Source: a virus
Taxonomy: Duplodnaviria > Caudoviricetes
Length of the DNA: 64,000 bases
IMG/VR virus record: IMGVR_UViG_3300028833_000073
Coordinates: 32,001-96,000 of that record
Reading direction: 5' to 3' (one strand)
Shown here: positions 3,177-55,400 of the stretch, piece by piece
Position numbering within the stretch: position 1 is the stretch's first letter
Layout: the number at the start of each line of letters is the position of its first letter
The notes under the pieces: generated by a model
The model's input: the letters and a program-made list of their open reading frames with translations, nothing else
Told to the model about the DNA's origin: nothing
Database searches by the model: none
Position numbers and translations under genes: made by a program

Positions 3177-3290
3177 TTGTAATTCCTCCATTCTATTATT
3201 AAGAAACAATACATTTATATGTATATAGACAAATTAAAAATAAATTCTCCCTAGGTCGCCCTAGGGAGAAATATATTAGATATGAAAGGA

Positions 3291-4487
3291 TTAATAGTCA
3301 GCTTCCCATACAGCAAGCTCAGCCATTGCCTCTTCCATAATCGCAGACTCTTCCTTACGCTTATAAGCAACTGCCTTAGCAAAAATACTACGATTCTGCT
3401 TATTGTTGAAGTCATAGATCTTAAGAGAAACTTGAGTTGCCTTAAGAACTGCAGACTGCACAATATTAGCAGTACGAGAAAGCATACCTAAAGCTCTCTG
3501 ATGTTTACTAATATTTTCAGAACGAGCATTTTTAGATTTATTATCAGTTCCAGCGGCACCCCATGAAGTACTAGCTGTTGAATATACTTTTGCTTTACCT
3601 TTTTCACTCATATCTGTATCATAGGCTACAGCAGTATGAGATCCTTCATCATTATCATTATCTTTAACTGGAGAATTCTTAAAATTATTATTAGAAGCTT
3701 TTTCAAGATCCTTAATAATCTGATTCATGTCTTTGTTAAGATTATCATATTGCTTCTTAATAGCTTTACGAGTATCCTTAAAGCCCATCATTTCAGTCAT
3801 AATATCATTTATATTTACGCTATCAGTGGTTTCATCTTCAAAAGCCTTATCAAAAGCTTCTTTTTCAAACTCTTTTTCACTTACACTAGATTCACCAATG
3901 AAAGAACCAAGAAGCTTTTCTTTTACATCTTCACCGTCAAACTTTTCATCTTCTTTGCTAATATCTTTATTGTTAATAATATCATAAGTAGAAATATGGC
4001 CGCCTGCCTTTTGGACTTTTACAGAAAGATTATCAAAACTGATAACTTCAAGAGTCTTCTTCTTACGATGAGAAGGCTCAAAATCAGTTAGATCCTTACC
4101 AATGATATCTTTCTTGTACTTATTAATGAATTCCTTGTTATTCTTACCAAACTTAGCTTCAAGACGAGCCATAAAGCCATTGAAAATAGCCTTAATCTTA
4201 GCCCAAAGCTTCTTGAAGAACTCTTTGATCTTATTGAACATATCTCCAATAGCACTCTCAGAGAAGTTCATAACTTCATTCTCATTAACACCTTCATTAA
4301 CCATTAAGCAAGCCTGCATATCTGTCTTAACTCCAGCTTCTACTAGAGCCATTTCATTCTGTAGGCCTACAATCTGTGCAATCTGGGCAGAGTATACACC
4401 ATCATCATAGCCTTCGGCCTCTTGAATATTAAGAGGGGCACTATACCCATTCATAGTATCCATAATCTGATTGGAAAAGATACCCAT
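3291..4487 (-). CDS. putative internal head/virion protein, paralog family member 3
   Basis: MGIFS start; FSE|SAIGDMFNKIKEFFKKLWAKIK; C-terminal KEES motif; late promoter at 4553-4564. Confidence 0.7.
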   Translation of the reverse strand: MGIFSNQIMDTMNGYSAPLNIQEAEGYDDGVYSAQIAQIVGLQNEMALVEAGVKTDMQACLMVNEGVNENEVMNFSESAIGDMFNKIKEFFKKLWAKIKAIFNGFMARLEAKFGKNNKEFINKYKKDIIGKDLTDFEPSHRKKKTLEVISFDNLSVKVQKAGGHISTYDIINNKDISKEDEKFDGEDVKEKLLGSFIGESSVSEKEFEKEAFDKAFEDETTDSVNINDIMTEMMGFKDTRKAIKKQYDNLNKDMNQIIKDLEKASNNNFKNSPVKDNDNDEGSHTAVAYDTDMSEKGKAKVYSTASTSWGAAGTDNKSKNARSENISKHQRALGMLSRTANIVQSAVLKATQVSLKIYDFNNKQNRSIFAKAVAYKRKEESAIMEEAMAELAVWEADY

Positions 4488-13433: not shown

Positions 13434-13449
13434 ATATATTATATATGGG
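13434..13449 (+). promoter_or_regulatory. early promoter
   Basis: ATATATTATatatggG. Confidence 0.6.
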
Positions 13450-13542
13450 AAGGAAGAGAGAGATATGTTTTGAATCATTTAACCTCCAACTAATAGATTT
13501 AGCTAAGACTAAATAACAAATAGAAAGGAAAGATGATTCAAG

Positions 13543-13914
13543 ATGTCTAGAAGAAAGAATTACTCTATTCCTGATTGTCCTAAAATTGGAAGGTATGATG
13601 GTCTTGGAATGGCCGCTGTGCCATTAGCAATAGCAGATAAGGAGAGAGAGTTAGGTATTAGTCATAGTAGTTCTTCTTCATATGACTATGGCTATGATGA
13701 TTATAGTTATGAAGAGGACGAAAAAGAGCTTGAAAAAGAATATGATGATATATATAATCGGGGAAAGAAACGTGGGTTTGAAGAAGGCTATCTTAAAGGA
13801 AGATTAGAAGTCTTGGTTGATTTTCTTGATAAAGATATTGATTATATACAAGATAAGATCAATGAAGATATATATATACTTGCATTCGGTAAAGATGCCA
13901 TAAACCATATTTAA
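13543..13914 (+). CDS. early hypothetical protein
   Basis: GAAAGGA RBS; acidic middle; GxxxG-periodic helix. Confidence 0.7.
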   Translation: MSRRKNYSIPDCPKIGRYDGLGMAAVPLAIADKERELGISHSSSSSYDYGYDDYSYEEDEKELEKEYDDIYNRGKKRGFEEGYLKGRLEVLVDFLDKDIDYIQDKINEDIYILAFGKDAINHI

Positions 13915-13952
13915 AGTTTCTTTCCCATCTCTCTCTTCTTTTTTGTCACTAG

Positions 13953-46955: not shown

Positions 46956-49900
46956 ATGTCAGCTATAGTAGATGATCTGAAAAACTATATGCTATACAAT
47001 AAAAAGATATATCTTCCAATTAATGATGATGACCGTAAAAATGGAAGTGCTATCTACTTACTTACTCCAAACTTGAATTCTTCTAAAGATATCTTAGGAG
47101 ATGTATATAATCATACTAAGTATGATGGTGCTATTAACTGGGCTAGCTACTATATGGAAAAGGATATGTCCTTCTATTTCCATACTGAATCTCATAAGAT
47201 GTCTAGACTAAGATCTAATCTTATTCTAGAGGATAGTGAATATACACTTGAGACAAATGTTAAAGGGACATTAAGTGAGTTCAAACGAGTGGAAATAAGT
47301 GAAGAGTTAATAGATCAATATAGTGGAGATTGTGATGATGTAAATGGATTGATTGGTTACTTTCCATGGACTGGTTATCTATATATGAATGAGAATGATC
47401 AGATAGTTGCTGGGTTAAATGTGAATGTAGATGATAGAGATATTCATAAGATCTTTGTGGTCGATGAAGAGAAGTATGGTTATCTATATAAGGATCTAAT
47501 TGCAGAAGCTAGAAAGATGAAAGCTAACTACTGTACCATTAGCAAGAATAATACAAGTGCTATCAAAGCACTTGAAGAATTTGGTTTTACTAAGACTGAA
47601 GACTTAGTAGACAATATAAAGATGCAGTTTAAGATTCCTATCACTGAATCTACTAGAGAGTCTGAAGTTATTGACTTCTTAGAACACTCTACTATGTTTA
47701 GACATATTAAGAACAATATCCAGTTTACTGAGCAGTATAAAGCTTTTAAGAAGCTAGTTATCTACTACTGTGAGTTCTTCAATATTAAGAAAGAGATAGG
47801 TATTCTAGGTGCTATCATTGTCTGTAGTAATAACCTAATCAATCCAGAAGAGTTGAGAGGGAATCTAAAGATTCTTAACTACATGAGTCAAGAAGAGATT
47901 GCTATTGCTTATAAGGCTGCTATGGGAGCATATGAACATAAGTTCATCGGAGAGAATATATATGATAGAATTCTATTTGATGGTTATAGACTCATACACT
48001 TCACAGATATTAATGTCATTATTAGAGATGAAGTCTTAGCTTACTATGATGAGCATAGTATTAATGGAAGATGGGATAATAACTTCCTATACATGAATGA
48101 AGTAGAAGAGATAGTGGAGAATATTAAGAGGAAGCATAGTACTAGTTCACCTAATCATATGATTCTTAATCTCTCTTATAGCTACTATAGGAAAGCTCAT
48201 AAGAAAGTACAATCTGCTATAAATAAGGGATTAACTAATAAAATTATCATTGACTATAGGGTCACTGTAAAAGAATCTGCTGAAGATGATATAGCTGCTA
48301 ATATACTCAATGAAAGTCATATCTCTTTTGGGTATGAGGATGAGAAGTTTACTAACTATGATCCTGATTGGAGATTCAAGTTATTTCCTAACCACAGAGG
48401 ACCTGGATTTGGATTTACTACTAAGACTGACTCTAAGAATCTAAGAGGAATCATTATAAGTTCTGGTACTGAGGTTAAAGGTGTTATAGGTGTAGATGAG
48501 TATAATAATATCATTGAGATGTACTGGACTGATATCAATCCTACTTTCTTACTAATGATTGCAGAACGTAAGTTCTATGCCAATAAAGTAGCTGTACCAA
48601 GGGGATATAAAGTAGCTATAGAAGCTCTTCAAGAATGTTCTAGCTGGTGTGAAGTAGAAAGAGATGAGCATGAAATTCACTTTGATTGTTACTCTCAAGA
48701 GAGGATTCCATATAAAGATATTGGGATTACTAAGAATGTAGCAAATATCTTTAATAGACTATCTTCTACTGACAAGGAGTATCTAGGTAATCAGTATCTT
48801 AACCCAGTATGTATCTCAAGTACTATCTGGAGTAAGGTATTAGAGGATACAGCTCTTGTAGATGTCTATGTACAACCTACTATGCCAAAGATCGGATGGA
48901 TTGATATTGCTGTGGTAGAATCTCAGAGAGGTAAAGGTTATGCTCTACGATTGATAAGAGAAACTCAAGAAGAGATAAAGACTAAGTTCAAAGATATAGA
49001 TGCTCTAGGATGGGTATGTCATAAAGACAATACTGCTTCATATAATCTTGCCACTAAAGCTGGTTTCTATCCATATAAAGAAGTAGAAGACCACAAGTAT
49101 CTTCTATGGACTATCCACAATACAGATATGATTCCTAATACATTCATAGAAGAAACAGAAGAGACTGAATGGACTGTAAAAGGTATAGAAGAATCATCTA
49201 CTATCAATGGTGATGGAGTAATGATGTTCATAGATGAAGATGTATCTAAGGTAATGGATGATGCTAAGTTTGGATCTAAGCTAAAGAAGATTATGTGGGA
49301 AGATAGAATTAGGAATAATAAGCAGGTACTACAGATATATGACTCTGTTAAGAAGGATACTAATGGTGGTATCAAGTACACCTATCTAGATCTTAATCTC
49401 TATAAGGGAAGGAATCTATTTGTTGACTTGTCATTCTATAACATTAGCTTCTTTAACAACTATACTAAGGCTGCTCCGAATGAAAGAGGACTAAATGAGA
49501 TGTACTTTGAGCTAGTATCTAGATTGATCAATGATAAAAGAATCAAGGATAAATATAAGAAAATCAATGTAATCATTCCTATAGAAGATTGGTGTAAAGA
49601 AGATATAAAGAAATATAAGGCTGAAGCTGTTAGAAAGGCAGACTACTGGGAGAATCTTAGTCCAATAGGTTGCTTCTTATTCTATGCAGAGAAGAATCCT
49701 TTAAGACTTCGTCAAGAGTTTAAGAATATTAACTTCATCTTCATTAGTGAGAGTGGTAGTTTCTTTAAGACTAACTTCACTGACTATGATAAGTCTAAAG
49801 ATTTTGTTAAGTTTAGAACTGCTGTACATAGCTTACTTAAGAGAGTCCATATTCCTAAGGATGAGACTTATGATAAGAAAGCTATAGTTCATAGTGTACT

Positions 49901-52900
49901 AGATAAAATGGAGTCTAATGGAGAAAACAAAGTAGTCATCAATAGCATTATAGCTAAACCTGAAGAACCTGGTAGTATTGATATACATGATCCAGCAGAT
50001 ATGAATGAAGAACAAAAGAAGAAAGCAGTTGTAACTAAGATTACTAATGCTGCTGAGAAAAGTAAGAGTCCTGAAGATGTAGTTGACACTATGTCTAAAG
50101 ACAATGAGTATGCCAAGGAATATACTGAAAAACTACTTAAGGATCTAGCTGATAATGAAACAGGGAATGTTAAGCTATCTGCTGCTAGAAGTAAGAGATT
50201 AGATAGTTTGAGTGAGAAGTTCTTATCTCAGAAGGTAGTAGATAATAAAGCTAAGTTTAATGGTACTATGGAGGAGTATATCAACTATAATTCTAATGCG
50301 GAAGAGTTACCTGAGACTGCATTACCTATAGAGAGTATCAATGAAGGATGGAAGCATCTTAAGTTTACTAACTTTGATGCTAGATATAGTGTAAGATCAG
50401 ATATCTATGCTATTCTATACTCATTTGAGAATAAGACTAGTAGGTTATCTATAAGGGATAAGATTGATATTGTAGATACTAGTACTACAGAAGACTGGAA
50501 GGAAACATGGACTGTTCCTTTTGAAGCTGATACAGGTAAGAGATTCAAGTTGAAGTTTGATGTTCCTTTGTTGAAAGATAATAGAAATATGGTATTAGGT
50601 GGTAATGACAAGACTATGAATGGTCAGCTAGTACTACTACCAATATCTAAGACAGATGAAGATACAGCACAGATAGTATCTCTTTACAATAAGATCTTTA
50701 TTAGAAGATATAGTATGGGCAACTGTAAGGCTAATAGGGAAACCGATAGGTTAAATAAAGCAATAGAGATTTTTACTAAAGAGCATCCAAATATTATGAA
50801 AATAACATATGGAGATAGCTCTAAGAGTAATGTGAAGTATGCTCTTCCTTTCGACTATACTGAGCTAGCTAGTATGTACTATAGCATAGAGCTGTATAAG
50901 AATAATAAACTAGAGCTTAAGATACTATTCAATCAAGACCAAGCAAGAAAAGAAGCAGGTCTTAAAGATGATGATACAAGAATGCCATATGGATACACTG
51001 TAAGAAATGGTAAGAAGGAAACTCTATTCTGGTATACTGATGATAGGATGGTATTTGCTAGTCAGGTTGTAGGTGTTATAAGTGGAAGATCAATTGAGTT
51101 TTATGATGTATATAAGAAGATAAAGCCAGGTGCTAAGCATTGCTATAGTAAGGCAAGCATTTTAGGTACTGAGATTCCAGTGATAATCATTATGGCTTAT
51201 TGTGAAGGATTGATAGAAGCTCTTAGAAAAGCTCATATCAACTATATTATCTCTGATAAGAGGGTCAATAGTTATAATGATACTCATGATATGATCAAAT
51301 TCAGTGATGCTTATCTATACTATGAAGATACTTATATTGGATCTATGCTTATGAATGGTATTAAAGATGTAGATACTAAAAGTCACTCTATACAAGAAGT
51401 AGATTCTAAGTCAATGTGGACTGAATTCTTAGATGAATATGGTGGTAGAGCTAAGTCCGATGGTCTTGATAACTTCTATGATCTTATGATGGATCCTATC
51501 ACTATCGAGGTATGTAATGTATATAAGCTTCCTACTGACTTCTGTGAGATGTTAGCTTATGCAAATCTCTTACTATCGACGAATGAGTATATAAAGCATA
51601 CTGATCTTAGTTCTAATAGATATAGAACCAATGAGATGATTGCTGTTCATGCTTATAAATGCTTAGCAAAAGCTTATGCTAATTATAGACTACAGCTTAA
51701 GAAGGAAAGATCTAATGTAGCTATGACTATGAAGCAGTCAGCTATCATTGACTCTATCATGGAAGAATCCATTATGTCAGATCTATCCATAATGAATCCT
51801 AACCTAGAAGCAGAAGCTATCAACTCTGTAGGATTCAAAGGACTTACTGGTATGAACAATGATAGATCTTACTCATTAGACAAGAGAACTTATGACAAGA
51901 GTATGACTAATAAGATTGCTATGTCTACTGGATTTGCTGGTAACGTAGGTGTTAATAGACAGACTACTATAGATATGCAGATATATGGTACTAGAGGATA
52001 TATAAAGAACTCGGATATGAAAGATGCATCTGTTACTAATACTCTTAGCATCACAGAAGCATTAACTCCATTTGGATCTACTAGAGATGACCCATTTAGA
52101 ACTGCTATGACTAATATCCAGACAAGTAAGCATAACATGAGAATCAAAGAGTCCATGCCTATGCTAGTGACATGTGGTGCTGATCAAGCATTACCATATC
52201 TTACAGGAGATACATTCTCGTTTAAAGCTAAGGGTAATGGTAAGGTTATTAAGAAAAATGATGATTATATGGTCGTAGAGTATGATAATAAGACTAGAGA
52301 GATGATAGATCTAAGAGAGAATGTTAAGAAGAACTCTGATGGTGGTTTCTATATCACTGTGAAGCTAGATACTAATCTTAAGAAGGGATCTAGATTCAAA
52401 GAGAAGGATATATTAGCATATGACAAGGTAGTATATAATGACTCAGTAGGTGACGGTAAGAATATAGCTTACTGTGTTGGTGCTTTAGCTAATGTAGCTT
52501 ATCTTAATACTGATGAAGGATTTGAAGATTCTGCTATTATCTCCAATAGATTAGCAGAAGCTTTATCATCTGAAGTAGTAGTAGAAGTTGCTAAGAACTT
52601 ACCTTGCAACACTAACATATTTGATATCGTTAAGAAGGGTACTAAAGTACAAGAAGGTGACACTCTACTCTTATTCCAGTCTCCATTTGAAGAAGAGGAT
52701 GCTAATAGAATCGTCAAGAATCTTGCTATGGATAAGAAAGAAGTATCTGAGCTAGGAAGAATACCATTAAGATCTAAAGTAACTGGTGTAGTACAAGATG
52801 TAAAGCTCTATAGAACAGTAGAACTATCTGAGATGTCTCCTAGTCTTAGGAAGTTGTTCAAGGAATATGAGTCTAAGATAGAAGTAATGAGAAAGGACTC

Positions 52901-53294
52901 TGAAGGAATGCTCAATAAGGTTCCTCTAGAAGCCAACTATAAACTTCCTGCTGTCTCTAAGATGAAGAATCTAGAAGGTAAGGTAAGAATTGAGTTCTAT
53001 ATAAAGTATAATGACAAGATGGGTATCGGAGATAAACTAGTATTCTACTCAGCAGTAAAAGGTGAGACTAAAAATATATTCCCCAGGGGGTTAGAACCCT
53101 ATACAGATGATCGTGGTAGTTCTGAAATTATTGATTCACTTTGTCCATTACCTAGTCTCTTACATCGTATGGTAGCATCAGTTACGATTGTTACTGGTCT
53201 CTATAAGGGTGTAGTAGAATTGACTAGATATATGAAGGAAGCCGTAGGATTAAAATATATTCCATATAATCCAAGAGAAGAAATTAAAAAATAA
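46956..53294 (+). CDS. phage multisubunit RNA polymerase beta-like subunit (probably virion RNAP) with N-terminal GNAT-like domains
   Basis: C-terminal ~950 aa has beta motifs: GNVGVNR, DDPFRTAMTNIQTSKH, GFEDSAIIS, GDKL....KG, RM; GNAT motif A IAVVESQRGKGYA and HKDNTASYNLATKAGF near 48900-49070. Confidence 0.88.
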   Translation: MSAIVDDLKNYMLYNKKIYLPINDDDRKNGSAIYLLTPNLNSSKDILGDVYNHTKYDGAINWASYYMEKDMSFYFHTESHKMSRLRSNLILEDSEYTLETNVKGTLSEFKRVEISEELIDQYSGDCDDVNGLIGYFPWTGYLYMNENDQIVAGLNVNVDDRDIHKIFVVDEEKYGYLYKDLIAEARKMKANYCTISKNNTSAIKALEEFGFTKTEDLVDNIKMQFKIPITESTRESEVIDFLEHSTMFRHIKNNIQFTEQYKAFKKLVIYYCEFFNIKKEIGILGAIIVCSNNLINPEELRGNLKILNYMSQEEIAIAYKAAMGAYEHKFIGENIYDRILFDGYRLIHFTDINVIIRDEVLAYYDEHSINGRWDNNFLYMNEVEEIVENIKRKHSTSSPNHMILNLSYSYYRKAHKKVQSAINKGLTNKIIIDYRVTVKESAEDDIAANILNESHISFGYEDEKFTNYDPDWRFKLFPNHRGPGFGFTTKTDSKNLRGIIISSGTEVKGVIGVDEYNNIIEMYWTDINPTFLLMIAERKFYANKVAVPRGYKVAIEALQECSSWCEVERDEHEIHFDCYSQERIPYKDIGITKNVANIFNRLSSTDKEYLGNQYLNPVCISSTIWSKVLEDTALVDVYVQPTMPKIGWIDIAVVESQRGKGYALRLIRETQEEIKTKFKDIDALGWVCHKDNTASYNLATKAGFYPYKEVEDHKYLLWTIHNTDMIPNTFIEETEETEWTVKGIEESSTINGDGVMMFIDEDVSKVMDDAKFGSKLKKIMWEDRIRNNKQVLQIYDSVKKDTNGGIKYTYLDLNLYKGRNLFVDLSFYNISFFNNYTKAAPNERGLNEMYFELVSRLINDKRIKDKYKKINVIIPIEDWCKEDIKKYKAEAVRKADYWENLSPIGCFLFYAEKNPLRLRQEFKNINFIFISESGSFFKTNFTDYDKSKDFVKFRTAVHSLLKRVHIPKDETYDKKAIVHSVLDKMESNGENKVVINSIIAKPEEPGSIDIHDPADMNEEQKKKAVVTKITNAAEKSKSPEDVVDTMSKDNEYAKEYTEKLLKDLADNETGNVKLSAARSKRLDSLSEKFLSQKVVDNKAKFNGTMEEYINYNSNAEELPETALPIESINEGWKHLKFTNFDARYSVRSDIYAILYSFENKTSRLSIRDKIDIVDTSTTEDWKETWTVPFEADTGKRFKLKFDVPLLKDNRNMVLGGNDKTMNGQLVLLPISKTDEDTAQIVSLYNKIFIRRYSMGNCKANRETDRLNKAIEIFTKEHPNIMKITYGDSSKSNVKYALPFDYTELASMYYSIELYKNNKLELKILFNQDQARKEAGLKDDDTRMPYGYTVRNGKKETLFWYTDDRMVFASQVVGVISGRSIEFYDVYKKIKPGAKHCYSKASILGTEIPVIIIMAYCEGLIEALRKAHINYIISDKRVNSYNDTHDMIKFSDAYLYYEDTYIGSMLMNGIKDVDTKSHSIQEVDSKSMWTEFLDEYGGRAKSDGLDNFYDLMMDPITIEVCNVYKLPTDFCEMLAYANLLLSTNEYIKHTDLSSNRYRTNEMIAVHAYKCLAKAYANYRLQLKKERSNVAMTMKQSAIIDSIMEESIMSDLSIMNPNLEAEAINSVGFKGLTGMNNDRSYSLDKRTYDKSMTNKIAMSTGFAGNVGVNRQTTIDMQIYGTRGYIKNSDMKDASVTNTLSITEALTPFGSTRDDPFRTAMTNIQTSKHNMRIKESMPMLVTCGADQALPYLTGDTFSFKAKGNGKVIKKNDDYMVVEYDNKTREMIDLRENVKKNSDGGFYITVKLDTNLKKGSRFKEKDILAYDKVVYNDSVGDGKNIAYCVGALANVAYLNTDEGFEDSAIISNRLAEALSSEVVVEVAKNLPCNTNIFDIVKKGTKVQEGDTLLLFQSPFEEEDANRIVKNLAMDKKEVSELGRIPLRSKVTGVVQDVKLYRTVELSEMSPSLRKLFKEYESKIEVMRKDSEGMLNKVPLEANYKLPAVSKMKNLEGKVRIEFYIKYNDKMGIGDKLVFYSAVKGETKNIFPRGLEPYTDDRGSSEIIDSLCPLPSLLHRMVASVTIVTGLYKGVVELTRYMKEAVGLKYIPYNPREEIKK

Positions 53295-53313
53295 ATGAGT
53301 ATAACATATTAGT

Positions 53314-53540
53314 ATGGTGGAACCAAGTGCCGTAGTGATTGTACACTTTCGCTGGGATACTTTACTTGGAAGGCCATCATACAGATGAGGGAGACAAGAG
53401 GCCGCTTTATAGAGTCGTGAAGCTTGCAAGTGGGAAGACGTGGTACCATCTTTCTTAGGCCTGTAAGGCGGTCTAGTTTCCCGTTTATATCAATTTCTTA
53501 AAACCACGTCAAAATATATCCACTACCAATGGTAGTGGAA
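53314..53540 (+). ncRNA. candidate structured ncRNA A
   Basis: Own late promoter (53303-53314) and terminal hairpin (53520-53538); long G-U-containing stems; 8-bp long-range pairing. Confidence 0.6.
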
Positions 53541-53566
53541 TTCTATTTTCTTCAATACATTATAGT

Positions 53567-53705
53567 ATGACCATGTTCTTTGCTGGTTGCATTCATTGAG
53601 GGAAGGTGCGGATCCCTTAATGGCTTTTTGCTCATTTGAAAACGCTCTTCTTTTTGTTACACGATATTTATTCCTCTCTTAACGGAGAGGGATAAATATT
53701 TTATT
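53567..53705 (+). ncRNA. candidate small ncRNA B
   Basis: TACA-N6-TA promoter at 53556-53567; stem cattgaggga/tcccttaatg; long terminator hairpin; no RBS or meaningful ORF. Confidence 0.45.
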
Positions 53706-53730
53706 TTTTATATAGATACAACATAAAAAT

Positions 53731-53910
53731 ACCAGAAGTCATGACACTCTTTGAGTGTACACGTTTGCTCATGACAGTATGGTTGGTATTTAGGTTATCC
53801 GGACCTAATACTATGCCTGTGAAAGAAAGTTTGTAGATCCTTTCTTTCCTGGAACGCTTCGTTACAACAGAGAAGACTGGAGGGCGTAACCGCCCTCCCT
53901 CTTCGCTGTC
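53731..53910 (+). ncRNA. candidate structured ncRNA C
   Basis: AACA-N6-TA promoter at 53720-53731; chain of hairpins ending in ggagggcg-taac-cgccctcc. Confidence 0.55.
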
Positions 53911-53920
53911 AAAAATGTGA

Positions 53921-53954
53921 ATATCTCTGAATTCAGAGATATATTATATATGTA
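53921..53954 (+). promoter_or_regulatory. early promoter overlapped by a 22-bp perfect palindrome
   Basis: atatctctgaattcagagatat (53921-53942) overlaps ATATATTAT (53939-53947). Confidence 0.6.
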
Positions 53955-53993
53955 GTAATAGGGTACCTTGTTTAACAACAAGGAGGAATTACC

Positions 53994-54101
53994 ATGAGAT
54001 TCTTTATATATCGTCTAGCAGAAACCACCTGCAAAAACGAATGGATCTTTGACGTAATTAATCATGTAATGTTTGATTTACTTATCACTTGTTTGCGATA
54101 A
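53994..54101 (+). CDS. small 35-aa ORF in a highly folded mRNA
   Basis: AGGAGG at 53981; MRFFIYRLAETTCKNEWIFDVINHVMFDLLITCLR. Confidence 0.55.
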   Translation: MRFFIYRLAETTCKNEWIFDVINHVMFDLLITCLR

Positions 54102-54201
54102 GCGACATTACCTCTGATCCTCGTTGTTGTGACTTGCAATCGCTTACGGTGGTATGAATATCACTCGCAATGTCAAACTCAAGGTACCCTATTACTTTTT
54201 G

Positions 54202-54831
54202 TCAAATAGTCTTATCTTTATATTCATTCTCATACTTTCTAGATAGAGTAACACAATACTTATTCATCTCTTCATCTTCTTCACCATTGAGAGTATATAG
54301 AATCATTGTATGGAAGTTAGCATCAAAGGTTACTGCTAGTCTACTTAGGATGTAGTATGAACTAATCATCCACCAACCAGCATCTTGCTTATCATTGAAG
54401 AGAATATCAAAGACTTCTCTATCAATACCAGTTCTATAAGCAAGAATATTAGTGTTTCTTTTTTCTATGTTTTGTTCTCTACAATACTTGAGAACTAGTT
54501 CCTTCATCCATTGGAATTCCGTATAAGGATCTCCCTTGATAGGAATAAACTCTAATGGTTCATCTATCAATCCATACAGATAGTCACAATTGACATTAAG
54601 CTCTCTTGCTATCTCGTATACAAAAGAATCTGGGAACTCGTCTCTTACATAGAAACTATGTAAGATCTCATTAAGTCTTTTATCTGTATGATGGCTATGC
54701 ATTATAAATTTATCTTTAAGACTCTCTACTTCTATTTTTTTCTCTTCACATAACCTTCTAACTCTCATGCAATTTATTGAAATCATTATTTCACTCCTTC
54801 TTTCTACAAGGGTCATAATCTGGCACTTCAA
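54202..54831 (-). CDS. putative XRE/HTH transcriptional regulator
   Basis: EIARELNVNCDYLYGLID is typical of XRE HTH C-terminal helices; a second degenerate copy follows; true start probably internal (ATG ~54786). Confidence 0.5.
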   Translation of the reverse strand: MKCQIMTLVERRSEIMISINCMRVRRLCEEKKIEVESLKDKFIMHSHHTDKRLNEILHSFYVRDEFPDSFVYEIARELNVNCDYLYGLIDEPLEFIPIKGDPYTEFQWMKELVLKYCREQNIEKRNTNILAYRTGIDREVFDILFNDKQDAGWWMISSYYILSRLAVTFDANFHTMILYTLNGEEDEEMNKYCVTLSRKYENEYKDKTI

Positions 54832-55168
54832 AGACTCCAGATTTAACAGATTGCTCTTCTAAGTAATCTTCTAGGGTAGTTACCTTGACGACCACTTGAT
54901 TTTGCTTTTTAGAAAAATAGGCATCTTCAAGTGCCCTGTATTTTGTACATTTAGAAAAATCTATAGGTTCCTTAATAAGAGGATCCACTATAGCGAATAC
55001 ATTGCCTCGTTTTATATTAGCCATCCTTCCTCGCTTATATTGTTCATTACCATAAGCATCATCAGGTTGTCTAATATAAATCTTTCTAAGTAATCTATTG
55101 CTTCTATCATAATCATCAACTTCTAAAAACTCTTTAGGAATAACTGTAGATTCATCCATTCTTATCAC
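54791..55168 (-). CDS. hypothetical protein
   Basis: GAGGTGA RBS; late-type promoter at 55178-55189. Confidence 0.65.
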   Translation of the reverse strand: MIRMDESTVIPKEFLEVDDYDRSNRLLRKIYIRQPDDAYGNEQYKRGRMANIKRGNVFAIVDPLIKEPIDFSKCTKYRALEDAYFSKKQNQVVVKVTTLEDYLEEQSVKSGVFEVPDYDPCRKKE

Positions 55169-55227
55169 CTCATTAATTATTAAGAAGTTTAAGCTCCTAC
55201 CAATTATGGTAGGAGCTATAATATCCT

Positions 55228-55304
55228 TGGCGGCCCGTATTGAATTCGAATCAATGACCTAGGCTTTAGAAGAGCCTTGCTCTATCCAACTGAGCTAACG
55301 GGCC
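55228..55304 (-). tRNA. tRNA-Arg (anticodon UCU) with encoded CCA
   Basis: ggcccgttagctcagttggatagagc-aaggct-cTTCTAA-agcct-aggtcattgattcgaattcaatacgggccgCCA folds as a cloverleaf; late-type promoter at 55315-55326. Confidence 0.93.
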
Positions 55305-55400
55305 AAGATTTTCATACTACTATGTATGTATCTATATAATTTTTAATATACAATAGATACTAAAGTAAATAATATATGTTGTAAAGGAGTGTAATTACAT

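What the first reader, a model, noticed from the sequence alone, without database searches (positions are those of the whole stretch)
53954..54200. Small ORF locked inside a 5'-3' paired mRNA with a distant anti-SD: type I toxin-like architecture
Seen: the predicted transcript 5' end agtaatagggtaccttg (53954-70) is perfectly complementary to caaggtaccctattact (54180-96), followed by a T-run. The RBS region acaacaaggagga (53975-87) is complementary, with one mismatch, to tcctcgttgttgt (54118-30) in the 3' UTR. Further stems include taagcga/tcgctta and gacatt/aatgtc. Known: hok and aapA type I toxin mRNAs are silenced by 5'-3' long-range pairing and SD sequestration. Inference: a tightly controlled 35-aa effector, or an RNA that is itself the product. 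The peptide is only moderately hydrophobic and I see no antisense RNA.
Basis: partly seen in the sequence, partly recalled or inferred. Interest (0 to 1): 0.7.

Follow-up and report, generated by a model that had tools for sequence, protein, structure and literature searches.

The report
End-paired early phage RNA with mini-ORF
An uncultured giant phage from sheep and goat guts carries an optional 248-base gene whose RNA pairs its first 17 bases with its last 17, and it looks more like one of the phage's own small regulatory RNAs than a toxin message.

Summary
The 17/17 inverted repeat (53954-70 / 54180-96) is the only long-range perfect repeat of that length in the 158-kb phage contig. The 13-nt SD/anti-SD pairing occurs in 1.3% of shuffles. 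The RNA folds at -77.9 kcal/mol (z -6.5).

New facts change the reading:
- A phage early-type promoter places +1 exactly on the first base of the stem.
- The ORF's last codons and stop lie inside a hairpin with the loop ACTTGTTTGC. Five other, ORF-less, late-promoter small-RNA genes in this genome share that loop, and their stems covary.
- The ORF's codon usage looks non-coding. The peptide has no relatives and no membrane helix.
- The predicted SD masking is no stronger than in about one ordinary gene in six, and it does not depend on the 5'-3' stem.
- Kin about 97% identical lack 53913-54156 but keep the 3' arm.

Best reading (0.45): a strain-variable early unit whose main product is a stable, end-closed RNA of the phage's private "handle" family, with its anti-SD box masked in cis. 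A real auto-inhibited mini-protein mRNA remains possible (0.3). Type I toxin membership is not supported.

This scan noted the same stretch again in an overlapping window, and the handle family in the same genome. It found nothing on other DNA. No transcript has been seen.

The parts
53910..53953 (+). Phage early-type promoter of a second class: CAAAAA-TGTGAA (TGTGAA 53916-21), 12 nt, CAGAGATATATTAT (53934-47), 6 nt, then +1 at 53954
   Evidence: Five copies of TGTGAA-N12-CA(G/A)AGATATATTAT occur in the genome. The AR9 early consensus AAATATATATTAT-(6N)-G+1 (PMC5312081) puts +1 at 53954. Here +1 is A rather than G.
53921..53942 (.). Perfect 22-nt palindrome ATATCTCTGAATTCAGAGATAT overlapping the promoter. 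Its right half is the conserved promoter box. On the minus strand it is followed by a T-rich run, which makes it terminator-like.
   Evidence: (I9). The other class-II promoters lack the left half.
53954..53970 (+). 5' arm of the 17-bp closing helix; begins at the predicted +1
   Evidence: P(unpaired) is 0.02.
53966..53983 (+). Local hairpin CCTTGTT-TAAC-AACAAGG that forms in the nascent RNA and covers the first bases of the SD
   Evidence: folds of growing transcripts. It masks the SD only in part: AGGAGG is 0.45 unpaired at transcript lengths of 107-164 nt.
53980..53987 (+). Shine-Dalgarno-like AAGGAGGA, 6 nt before the ATG at 53994
   Evidence: Read from the sequence. In the full-length RNA it pairs with 54118-54122.
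53994..54101 (+). 35-codon ORF (MRFF...ITCLR); coding status doubtful
   Evidence: Codon score is -0.16 bit/codon, against +0.42 for real genes. No homologue was found and no TM segment.
54081..54102 (+). 'Handle' hairpin: stem CTTATC/GATAAG, invariant loop ACTTGTTTGC. It contains the last codons and the TAA stop of the ORF.
   Evidence: There are six exact loop copies in the genome with five different stems. Compensatory changes occur in 5 of 7 pairs, and 0 of 500 shuffles reach the observed score.
54110..54130 (+). CU-rich boxes: ACCTCT (half open) and TCCTCGTTGTTGT (the anti-SD, paired in cis with 53975-87)
   Evidence: Similar CU-rich boxes follow the handle in other members of the family.
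54131..54175 (+). 3' domain hairpin (GACTTGC...GCAATGTC, tip GGTGGTA/TATCACT)
   Evidence: MFE and centroid structures.
54180..54200 (+). 3' arm of the closing helix (54180-96) and the T-run (54196-54200); ends 1 nt before the stop codon of the convergent gene 54202-54786(-)
   Evidence: Kin that lack the rest of the unit still hold this stretch.
53913..54156 (.). 244-nt segment absent from close kin: promoter, 5' arm, ORF, handle and anti-SD. It is flanked by TGAATATCTCT (53918-28) and TGAATATCACT (54155-65).
   Evidence: A contig of run X4 joins 53912 directly to 54157. A contig of run X5 starts at 54157 behind letters that match 53891-53912. The direct repeat comes (D8) and is of marginal significance, 27 of 500 shuffles.

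Best explanation
The stretch is a complete, optional transcription unit of an uncultured AR9-like giant phage from the sheep and goat gut.

**The transcript.** A phage early-type promoter starts the RNA at 53954. The RNA runs about 245 nt to the T-run at 54196-54200. Its first 17 bases pair with the 17 bases just before that T-run.

**Inferred roles of the closing helix.**
- It serves as the terminator hairpin, because there is no local one.
- It seals both ends of the RNA against end-dependent nucleases, which would give a long-lived RNA.

**What the RNA carries.** Inside it is the 'handle' hairpin with loop ACUUGUUUGC. This hairpin marks a private family of small RNA genes in this phage. CU-rich anti-Shine-Dalgarno boxes follow it, as in other members of the family.

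**Most likely function (inferred).** The RNA itself is probably the main product. It would be an early-made, atypical member of the handle family. Its anti-SD box is held in a 13-nt helix by an SD-like stretch of the same molecule, so it is either kept inactive until opened or acts only in cis. The 35-codon ORF behind that SD is either not translated or translated weakly during transcription, before the anti-SD is made. Its peptide is probably not the point of the unit.

**Shown here:**
- the helices and their statistics;
- the promoter match;
- membership of the hairpin family through covariation;
- the non-coding-like codon usage;
- the absence of the cassette in close kin.

**Inferred:** transcription itself, termination at the helix, stability, and any regulatory action.
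For: **Promoter and ends**
- The promoter belongs to a five-member class, and the AR9 spacing rule puts +1 on the first base of the stem.
- The helix ends exactly at +1 and at the T-run.
- It is unique in the genome.
- A second early unit has the same design. At window 13453-64 / 13927-38, 12 perfect pairs sit right before T6, with no local terminator hairpin, around a 123-aa ORF. End-pairing is therefore a recurring design in this phage and not a toxin-specific lock.

**Handle hairpin**
- Six exact copies of the 10-nt loop occur with five different stems. Five of seven pairs carry compensatory changes, and 0 of 500 shuffles match.
- The other five copies sit in ORF-less units behind late promoters AACA-N6-T[AG], 53-62 nt upstream.
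- CU-rich boxes follow the handle in this unit, in unit 122007 and in unit 67390.

**ORF**
- The codon score is at the 1st percentile of 35-codon windows of real genes and at the median of open off-frame windows.
- Among small SD-bearing intergenic ORFs it groups with the doubtful ones.
- The last seven codons are dictated by the RNA hairpin.
- No homologue was found, and the protein atlas recognises nothing.

**Structure**
- The inner 209 nt are still structured, z -3.26.
- The 13-nt SD/anti-SD helix occurs in 1.3% of shuffles.
Against: - No transcript has been seen. The one RNA run laid on the stretch covers the neighbouring gene, not this unit, and it consists of contigs only.
- A canonical AAGGAGGA, an ATG at ideal spacing and 35 open codons together have a chance of roughly 1% even if the SD-like box is granted (my estimate from base composition). 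This argues for a real ORF.
- All other handle units have late promoters and no SD, so this one is atypical of the family it is assigned to.
- Only four unpaired U follow the helix.
- The family is private to this phage lineage. It is absent from five relatives at 41-50% RNAP identity, so there is no deep conservation to lean on.
- The helix is perfect, with no wobble pair. That would also fit a recent DNA-level inverted duplication.
Confidence: 0.45

Rival explanations
1. It is a real small-protein gene. The unit would be an early ORFan cassette for a 35-aa peptide. Its mRNA is stabilised by end-pairing, and its translation is limited to a short co-transcriptional window before the anti-SD closes the ribosome-binding site. 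The handle hairpin would then be a regulatory or processing site on an mRNA. The RNA could also act as a regulator, making it a dual-function RNA.
For: - The SD AAGGAGGA, 6 nt of spacing, ATG and 35 open codons are unlikely to arise by chance (my estimate is about 1%).
- The AGGAGG is about 45% unpaired in nascent RNA of 107-164 nt, and falls to 17% only after the anti-SD is transcribed.
- The layout is a stem-loop overlapping an early promoter, followed by an SD and a small orphan ORF, and it is present or absent between close kin. This is the layout of PeSL cassettes in T4-type phages (PMC2839356).
- The second end-paired unit in this phage encloses a normal-looking 123-aa gene.
Against: - Codon usage is non-coding-like.
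- No relatives were found in two very large protein sets.
- The C-terminus is fixed by an RNA motif that is non-coding in its five other copies.
- The peptide has no recognisable feature.
Confidence: 0.3
2. It is a type I toxin-antitoxin-like module. In that reading a toxic peptide mRNA is locked by 5'-3' pairing and SD sequestration, is activated by 3' processing, and is counteracted by an antisense RNA, possibly read-through from the convergent gene.
For: - The 5'-3' pairing and the SD/anti-SD helix are real.
- A nascent 5' hairpin covers part of the SD. This recalls the metastable hairpins of aapA1 (PMC6733600, PMC5416894).
- The convergent operon has no terminator before the unit. Its first terminator-like site on the minus strand is the palindrome at 53942-53921, so an antisense 3' UTR could cover the whole unit.
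Against: - No hydrophobic or membrane segment is predicted. The best window is 1.29, and two Asp, one Asn and one His lie in the C-terminal stretch.
- No consensus early or late promoter is found on the minus strand.
- SD masking is ordinary in degree and independent of the closing stem, and in-silico 3' trimming does not open it.
- No Rfam family matches.
- The unit is lost in close kin that keep the neighbouring gene. That is not what would be expected of an addiction module, although it is not decisive.
Confidence: 0.05
3. It is a by-product at the DNA level with no function of its own. A recent local inverted duplication or template switch would have made the perfect 17-nt repeat, in a hypervariable spacer between convergent genes. 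The cassette would be a decaying or neutral insertion.
For: - The helix is perfect, with no G-U pair, whereas other helices of the unit have wobbles and a mismatch.
- The segment is dispensable in kin.
- The region behind the RNAP gene is variable among relatives.
Against: - The repeat starts exactly at the predicted +1 and ends exactly at a T-run.
- The inner part is structured on its own.
- It carries an intact copy of a covarying hairpin and a full promoter.
- A goat-gut run from another study holds 54001-54116 with no difference.
Confidence: 0.12
4. It is a mobile element bounded by terminal inverted repeats (MITE-like), or a retron-type msr-msd RNA flanked by a1/a2 repeats.
For: A 17-nt perfect inverted repeat flanks about 209 nt.
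Against: - The indel in kin (53913-54156) does not coincide with the repeat. It removes the left arm and keeps the right one.
- There is only one copy in the genome.
- There is no target-site duplication at the arms.
- No reverse transcriptase or transposase lies among the neighbours.
- No Rfam hit was found.
Confidence: 0.02

Closest known systems
The phage's own 'handle-hairpin' small-RNA genes (five other copies in the same contig, at genome 99390-, 106516-, 106644-, 106769- and 154007+)
   Same: They share an identical 10-nt loop ACTTGTTTGC closed by C-G, on a 5-8-bp stem that covaries. CU-rich anti-SD-like boxes lie downstream. Each is a self-contained unit with its own promoter and end.
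   Different: This copy has an early-type rather than a late promoter. The hairpin lies 133 nt from +1 rather than about 45 nt. It has an SD and a 35-codon ORF upstream, an anti-SD paired in cis, and a long-range rather than local terminal helix.
hok/sok and aapA1/IsoA1 type I toxin mRNAs (PMC5416894, PMC6733600)
   Same: The RNA is small and carries a roughly 30-50-codon ORF. The full-length RNA pairs its 5' and 3' ends. The SD is paired with an anti-SD, and local hairpins form during synthesis.
   Different: Here the peptide is not hydrophobic, no antisense RNA gene is seen, the SD lock does not depend on the end-pairing, 3' trimming is not predicted to activate translation, and the host is a phage, not a chromosome or plasmid. 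There is no sequence or Rfam relation.
PeSL (promoter-early stem-loop) cassettes of T4-type phages (PMC2839356)
   Same: A stem-loop overlaps an early promoter and is followed by an SD and a small orphan ORF. The unit lies in a variable spacer and is present or absent between very close phages. Short repeats lie at the junctions.
   Different: Here the promoter is of the AR9 virion-RNAP type, not sigma-70. Only two early promoters of this genome carry such a hairpin. No mini-circles or repeated exchange have been shown.
Early transcription units of Bacillus phage AR9 (PMC5312081)
   Same: The promoter core is ATATATTAT with the start 6 nt further on, and the units are short and end at hairpin plus U-tract terminators.
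   Different: This phage has two upstream-box classes (TGACCAAA-type and TGTGAA-type). Here +1 is A, and the terminator helix is formed with the RNA's own 5' end.
Dual-function small RNAs that also encode a peptide (SgrS/SgrT, RNAIII/hld, SR1/SR1P; recalled from memory, not checked here)
   Same: A structured regulatory RNA of 200-500 nt carries a short ORF with its own SD.
   Different: No target, no translation and no peptide function is known here. The ORF overlaps the conserved RNA motif instead of lying apart from it.
Intergenic small RNAs of giant phages mapped by ONT-cappable-seq (201phi2-1, phiKZ; PMC11512511)
   Same: These are short units in giant phages in which a terminator closely follows a start site, and they are proposed as sRNAs of unknown function.
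   Different: Those were seen as transcripts and one is conserved across genera. This one is predicted only and is confined to one lineage.

Membership tests
Type I toxin-antitoxin (hok/sok, aapA1/IsoA1 type) | Small hydrophobic, membrane-active toxin peptide | tested here: not met
   The best 19-residue Kyte-Doolittle window is 1.29, GRAVY is 0.5 and the net charge is 0. The only hydrophobic stretch contains D, N, H and D.
Type I toxin-antitoxin (hok/sok, aapA1/IsoA1 type) | Antisense RNA antitoxin with its own promoter | tested here: not met
   No consensus early or late phage promoter lies on the minus strand of 53700-54900. Only two AACA motifs with the wrong spacing were found. Antisense read-through from the convergent operon remains possible.
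Type I toxin-antitoxin (hok/sok, aapA1/IsoA1 type) | 5'-3' long-distance pairing in the full-length mRNA | tested here: met
   A 17/17 helix joins the predicted +1 and the bases before the T-run.
Type I toxin-antitoxin (hok/sok, aapA1/IsoA1 type) | Translation unlocked by 3'-end trimming and refolding | tested here: not met
   In silico only. P(unpaired) of AGGAGG stays at 0.17 for transcript ends at 54135-54201, and rises only when the RNA ends before 54123. Not tested at the bench.
Type I toxin-antitoxin (hok/sok, aapA1/IsoA1 type) | Toxicity of the peptide | not testable with these tools
   Needs expression in a host.
Handle-hairpin small RNAs of this phage (private family) | Hairpin with invariant loop ACTTGTTTGC closed by C-G on a covarying stem | tested here: met
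   85.7% of cells are paired, 5 of 7 pairs carry double changes, and 0 of 500 shuffles match.
Handle-hairpin small RNAs of this phage (private family) | Late promoter AACA-N6-T[AG] about 55 nt upstream of the loop | tested here: not met
   None lies within 260 nt upstream. An early-type promoter lies 133 nt upstream instead.
Handle-hairpin small RNAs of this phage (private family) | No SD-led ORF | tested here: not met
   This copy alone has AAGGAGGA plus ATG plus 35 codons.
Handle-hairpin small RNAs of this phage (private family) | CU-rich (anti-SD-like) box downstream of the hairpin | tested here: met
   ACCTCT and TCCTC lie at 54110-54122. ATTACCTC is also found after the handle in units 122007 and 67390. 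This is a qualitative comparison only.
PeSL-type mobile regulatory cassettes | Stem-loop overlapping an early promoter, followed by the SD and start of a small orphan ORF | tested here: met
   The palindrome 53921-42 lies inside the promoter 53910-53953, and the SD and ATG follow (definition from PMC2839356).
PeSL-type mobile regulatory cassettes | Presence/absence between closely related phages | tested here: met
   Contigs of X4 and X5 (about 97% identical in the flanks) join 53912 to 54157.
PeSL-type mobile regulatory cassettes | Sigma-70-type promoter of a T4-type phage; many copies that recombine with each other | tested here: not met
   The promoter is of the AR9 type. Only two promoter-plus-hairpin sites occur in the contig.
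AR9-type early (virion RNAP) promoter | AAATATATATTAT-(6N)-G+1 | tested here: inconclusive
   GAGATATATTAT-(6N)-A: the core and the spacing fit, but +1 is A and the upstream bases differ. The motif recurs about 20 times in this genome. Activity has not been measured.
MITE / TIR-bounded element | Indel boundaries coincide with the terminal inverted repeats; several copies; target duplication | tested here: not met
   The indel is 53913-54156, whereas the repeat is 53954-54196. Only a single copy exists.
Retron msr-msd RNA | Adjacent reverse transcriptase gene | tested here: not met
   The neighbouring proteins have no RT domain.

The most novel reading that the evidence does not exclude
The unit is a new kind of phage riboregulator made early in infection. 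It would be an RNA whose own 5' end supplies the terminator stem. That would leave it blunt-closed and long-lived. It would combine, in one molecule, the family's protein- or RNA-binding 'handle', an anti-SD seed and a decoy SD with a short translated ORF. Translation of the mini-ORF would run through the handle and up to 17 nt from the anti-SD. Opening of the RNA by the handle's partner is the other possibility. Either event would decide whether the seed is released to silence other messages. With the second end-paired early unit (window 13449-13944), this would make 5'-3' closure a general expression device of this phage lineage.
Probability: 0.15. Interest if true: 0.75.

Novelty: new variant of a known kind. 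Interest (0 to 1): 0.45.

Why it matters
Small RNAs of giant phages are almost unexplored. Here a single 248-nt unit combines four testable features:
- a terminator built from the transcript's own 5' end;
- a hairpin shared by a private RNA family;
- a self-masked anti-ribosome-site box;
- a mini-ORF.

If it is expressed, it offers a compact model for how a phage that brings its own RNA polymerases controls translation and RNA stability over time. Natural kin that lack the cassette provide a ready-made knockout.

It also serves as a caution. End-pairing plus SD masking is not enough to call a type I toxin.

Tried and rejected
**Searches for relatives and known families**
- Rfam, at gathering thresholds on the whole window and at E up to 10 on 53200-54400, gave only a tRNA-Arg and sub-threshold noise.
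- blastn of 53295-54210 against 50,697 phage records found no match.
- The exact 17-mer has no match in IMG/VR. In prokaryote genomes it has 7 isolated matches with nothing else alike, which I read as chance.
- A 16-mer of the handle array gave 23 single matches in small, unrelated viral contigs, also read as chance.
- The neighbouring 194-aa protein has no relative in IMG/VR. In JGI metagenomes it has two relatives at about 50% identity in a different gene order, so they are of no use.
- Five relatives found through RNAP beta (41-50% aa identity) have no DNA similarity to the spacer and no handle hairpin.

The 84%-identical kin proteins P0001 and P0002 could therefore not be traced to DNA, and no substitution-pattern test (synonymous versus compensatory changes) was possible.
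- The peptide is too short for the search for homologous proteins.

**Peptide searches**
- The representative search gave one spurious hit in a 765-aa repeat protein.
- The protein atlas gave nothing above 0.77.

**RNA evidence**
- The metatranscriptome run X6 has no contig over the unit. It is contigs only, so this says nothing either way.
- Run X3 has no cover of 53905-54000. This also proves nothing.

**Trans-target screen**
- The anti-SD region was screened against the whole genome. The best non-self duplex (-31.6 kcal/mol, a 12-nt perfect match) lies inside a long ORF, far from any start, and is about what chance gives.

**Ideas dropped**
- SD 'locked at every stage of synthesis': my first calculation was off by two bases. 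With the right coordinates the SD is about half open in nascent RNA.
- ATTACCTC as a family motif: it is not enriched in the genome.
- Direct repeat at the indel as proof of deletion: it is only marginally non-random (27 of 500 shuffles), and the junction is 7 nt off a clean repeat-mediated deletion. Insertion versus deletion stays open.

Full report
**Context.** The window is bases 32001-96000 of a 158-kb IMG/VR virus contig, estimated 64% complete. It encodes a 2112-aa RNA polymerase beta-like protein (46956-53294; PHROG RNAP beta, E 1e-128). Its nearest cultured relatives are Listeria, Staphylococcus and Yersinia giant phages at about 30-33% identity. It also encodes a 7123-aa ORF and one tRNA-Arg. 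Public runs that hold the DNA are sheep and goat gut metagenomes. The finding lies at the end of a 900-nt gene-free spacer between the RNAP gene and a convergent 194-aa gene (54202-54786, minus strand).

**The observation.**
- The 17/17 inverted repeat 53954-70 / 54180-96 is the only perfect long-range repeat of that length in the contig. Twenty shuffled genomes never reached 17.
- The SD/anti-SD repeat (53975-87 / 54118-30, 12 of 13) occurs in 4 of 300 shuffles of the inner sequence.
- The whole RNA folds at -77.9 kcal/mol, z -6.5. The inner 209 nt alone give z -3.3.
- No Rfam family matches.

**Promoter and ends.** The motif TATATTATATATGTRG recurs about 17 times in the genome. It fits the early, virion-RNAP promoter of phage AR9, AAATATATATTAT-(6N)-G+1 (PMC5312081).
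- Most copies have an upstream box cTGACCAAA.
- This unit instead belongs to a second class of five promoters: TGTGAA, 12 nt, CA(G/A)AGATATATTAT.
- That class also drives protein genes and a roughly 50-nt RNA noted earlier in this scan.
- The AR9 spacing rule places +1 at 53954, the first base of the 17-nt arm. The other arm ends at the T-run.

The helix therefore spans exactly from the first transcribed base to the U-tract. There is no local hairpin before the U-tract. I infer that the long-range helix is itself the terminator stem and that it leaves an RNA closed at both ends. From general knowledge, 5'-terminal helices protect bacterial RNAs from 5'-end-dependent decay; this point is recalled and was not tested here.

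A second early unit has the same design. Its bases +6 to +17 (13453-64) pair perfectly with the 12 bases just before T6 (13927-38), around a normal-looking 123-aa gene. End-pairing is thus a recurring device of this phage and not a mark of a toxin message.

**The handle hairpin.** A lead from earlier notes of this scan was tested here.
- The 10-mer ACTTGTTTGC occurs six times in the contig. Each copy is closed by C-G and flanked by a stem of 5-8 pairs, with five different stem sequences.
- On an alignment of the six copies, 5 of 7 pairs show changes on both sides, 85.7% of cells pair, and no shuffle or slid register comes near.
- The copy in this unit (54081-54102) contains the last codons and the TAA of the ORF.
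- The other five copies sit 53-62 nt behind late promoters AACA-N6-T[AG]. None has an SD-led ORF.
- Several are followed by CU-rich boxes, as here (ACCTCT, TCCTC).
- The hairpin is absent from five relatives at 41-50% RNAP identity, so the family is private to this lineage.

**Is the ORF a gene?**

*For:*
- A canonical AAGGAGGA, 6 nt of spacing, ATG and 35 open codons are together unlikely by chance, by my estimate about 1% even if the SD-like box is granted.

*Against:*
- The codon score of -0.16 bit per codon lies at the first percentile of 35-codon windows of the phage's long genes and at the median of open off-frame windows.
- Among small intergenic ORFs with strong SDs it groups with the doubtful ones, apart from the clearly protein-like acidic ones.
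- There is no relative among 1.84 billion representatives and nothing in the protein atlas.
- There is no membrane-type segment.
- The C-terminus is dictated by an RNA motif.

I put the chance that it is translated to any useful degree at a little under one half.

**SD masking.** In the full-length RNA, AGGAGG is 17% unpaired. In equal windows, 14-19% of SD-bearing genes of this phage are masked as much. In nascent RNA of 107-164 nt it is about 45% unpaired, and it closes only when the anti-SD is made. The closing stem makes no difference to the SD, and removing the 3' arm does not open it. This departs from hok and aapA1, where 3' trimming triggers refolding and translation (PMC5416894).

**Variation in kin.** Contigs of four runs were laid on 53000-55000.
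- In a sheep run from another study (X4), a 622-nt contig about 97% identical in the flanks joins 53912 directly to 54157.
- A second sample of that study (X5) has a contig that starts at 54157 behind letters matching 53891-53912.
- These kin therefore lack 244 nt: the promoter, 5' arm, ORF, handle and anti-SD. They keep the last 45 nt, including the 3' arm and the T-run.
- A goat run from a third study (X3) holds 54001-54116 with no difference.
- The indel is flanked by TGAATATCTCT and TGAATATCACT. That repeat is only marginally significant, and the junction is 7 nt off a clean repeat-mediated deletion, so the direction of the event is open.
- Deletion is the simpler account, because a 17-nt perfect match between an incoming cassette and resident DNA would otherwise need explaining.
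- The boundaries rule out a TIR-bounded mobile element.
- A stem-loop overlapping an early promoter, followed by an SD and a small orphan ORF, and variable between close phages, is the layout of PeSL cassettes in T4-type phages (PMC2839356).

**Verdict.** The stretch is a genuine, statistically well-supported RNA architecture in an optional early-type unit.
- It most likely makes a stable, end-closed RNA that is an atypical member of the phage's own handle family, with a cis-masked anti-SD (0.45).
- A real auto-inhibited mini-protein mRNA, possibly dual-function, is the main rival (0.3).
- Type I toxin membership fails on the peptide, the antisense RNA and the unlocking mechanism (0.05).

Nothing here has been seen as RNA.

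Noticed in passing
window 13435-13944: A second early unit has the same end-pairing. GAAGAGAGAGAT (13453-64, from +6 of the predicted transcript) is perfectly complementary to ATCTCTCTCTTC (13927-38), and T6 follows at once. It encloses a 123-aa ORF (13543-13914) and has no local terminator hairpin.
   Followed up: partly
genome 10880+, 78572+ (window 46572), 85916+ (window 53916), 96013+ (window 64013, just past the end), 123043-: A second class of early-type promoter was found: (AAAAAG)TGTGAA-N12-CA(G/A)AGATATATTAT. It is distinct from the commoner class with the upstream box cTGACCAAA. It drives both protein genes and small RNA units.
   Followed up: partly
all six handle hairpins (window 54087; genome 99390-, 106516-, 106644-, 106769-, 154007+): In every copy the frame ACT TGT TTG CGN meets a stop codon one or two codons later (TAA, TAG or TGA inside or just after the 3' stem arm). 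Only the copy at 54087 has a start and an SD upstream. The naive chance is about 1e-3 to 1e-4, and I have no explanation.
   Followed up: partly
window 54149-54156: GGTGGTAT, in the 3' domain of the unit, equals the first eight bases of the leader GGTGGTATTGGG that follows about eight class-I early promoters. It could be a site for the anti-leader RNA noted earlier at window 64037, or it could be chance (about 3%).
   Followed up: no
window 53585-54230: Run X4 also has a contig that joins 53585 to 54230, skipping 644 nt. That would remove two of the upstream ncRNA units, this unit and the stop codon of the convergent gene. Only 29 nt lie on one side of the joint, so the evidence is weak.
   Followed up: no
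window 3242-3290: A second promoter-like TATATTAG motif is directly preceded by a hairpin (TCTCCCTAGG-TCGC-CCTAGGGAGA). It points antisense to the gene at 3291-4487(-).
   Followed up: no
window 55156-55310 (minus strand): tRNA-Arg(TCT) is followed by a hairpin (AGCTCCTACC...GGTAGGAGCT) and then by the 125-aa and 194-aa genes. No consensus phage promoter was found for this convergent operon. Only a weak TATATTAT lies at 55376(-).
   Followed up: partly
window 22012-43383 (minus strand): A single open reading frame of 7123 codons.
   Followed up: no
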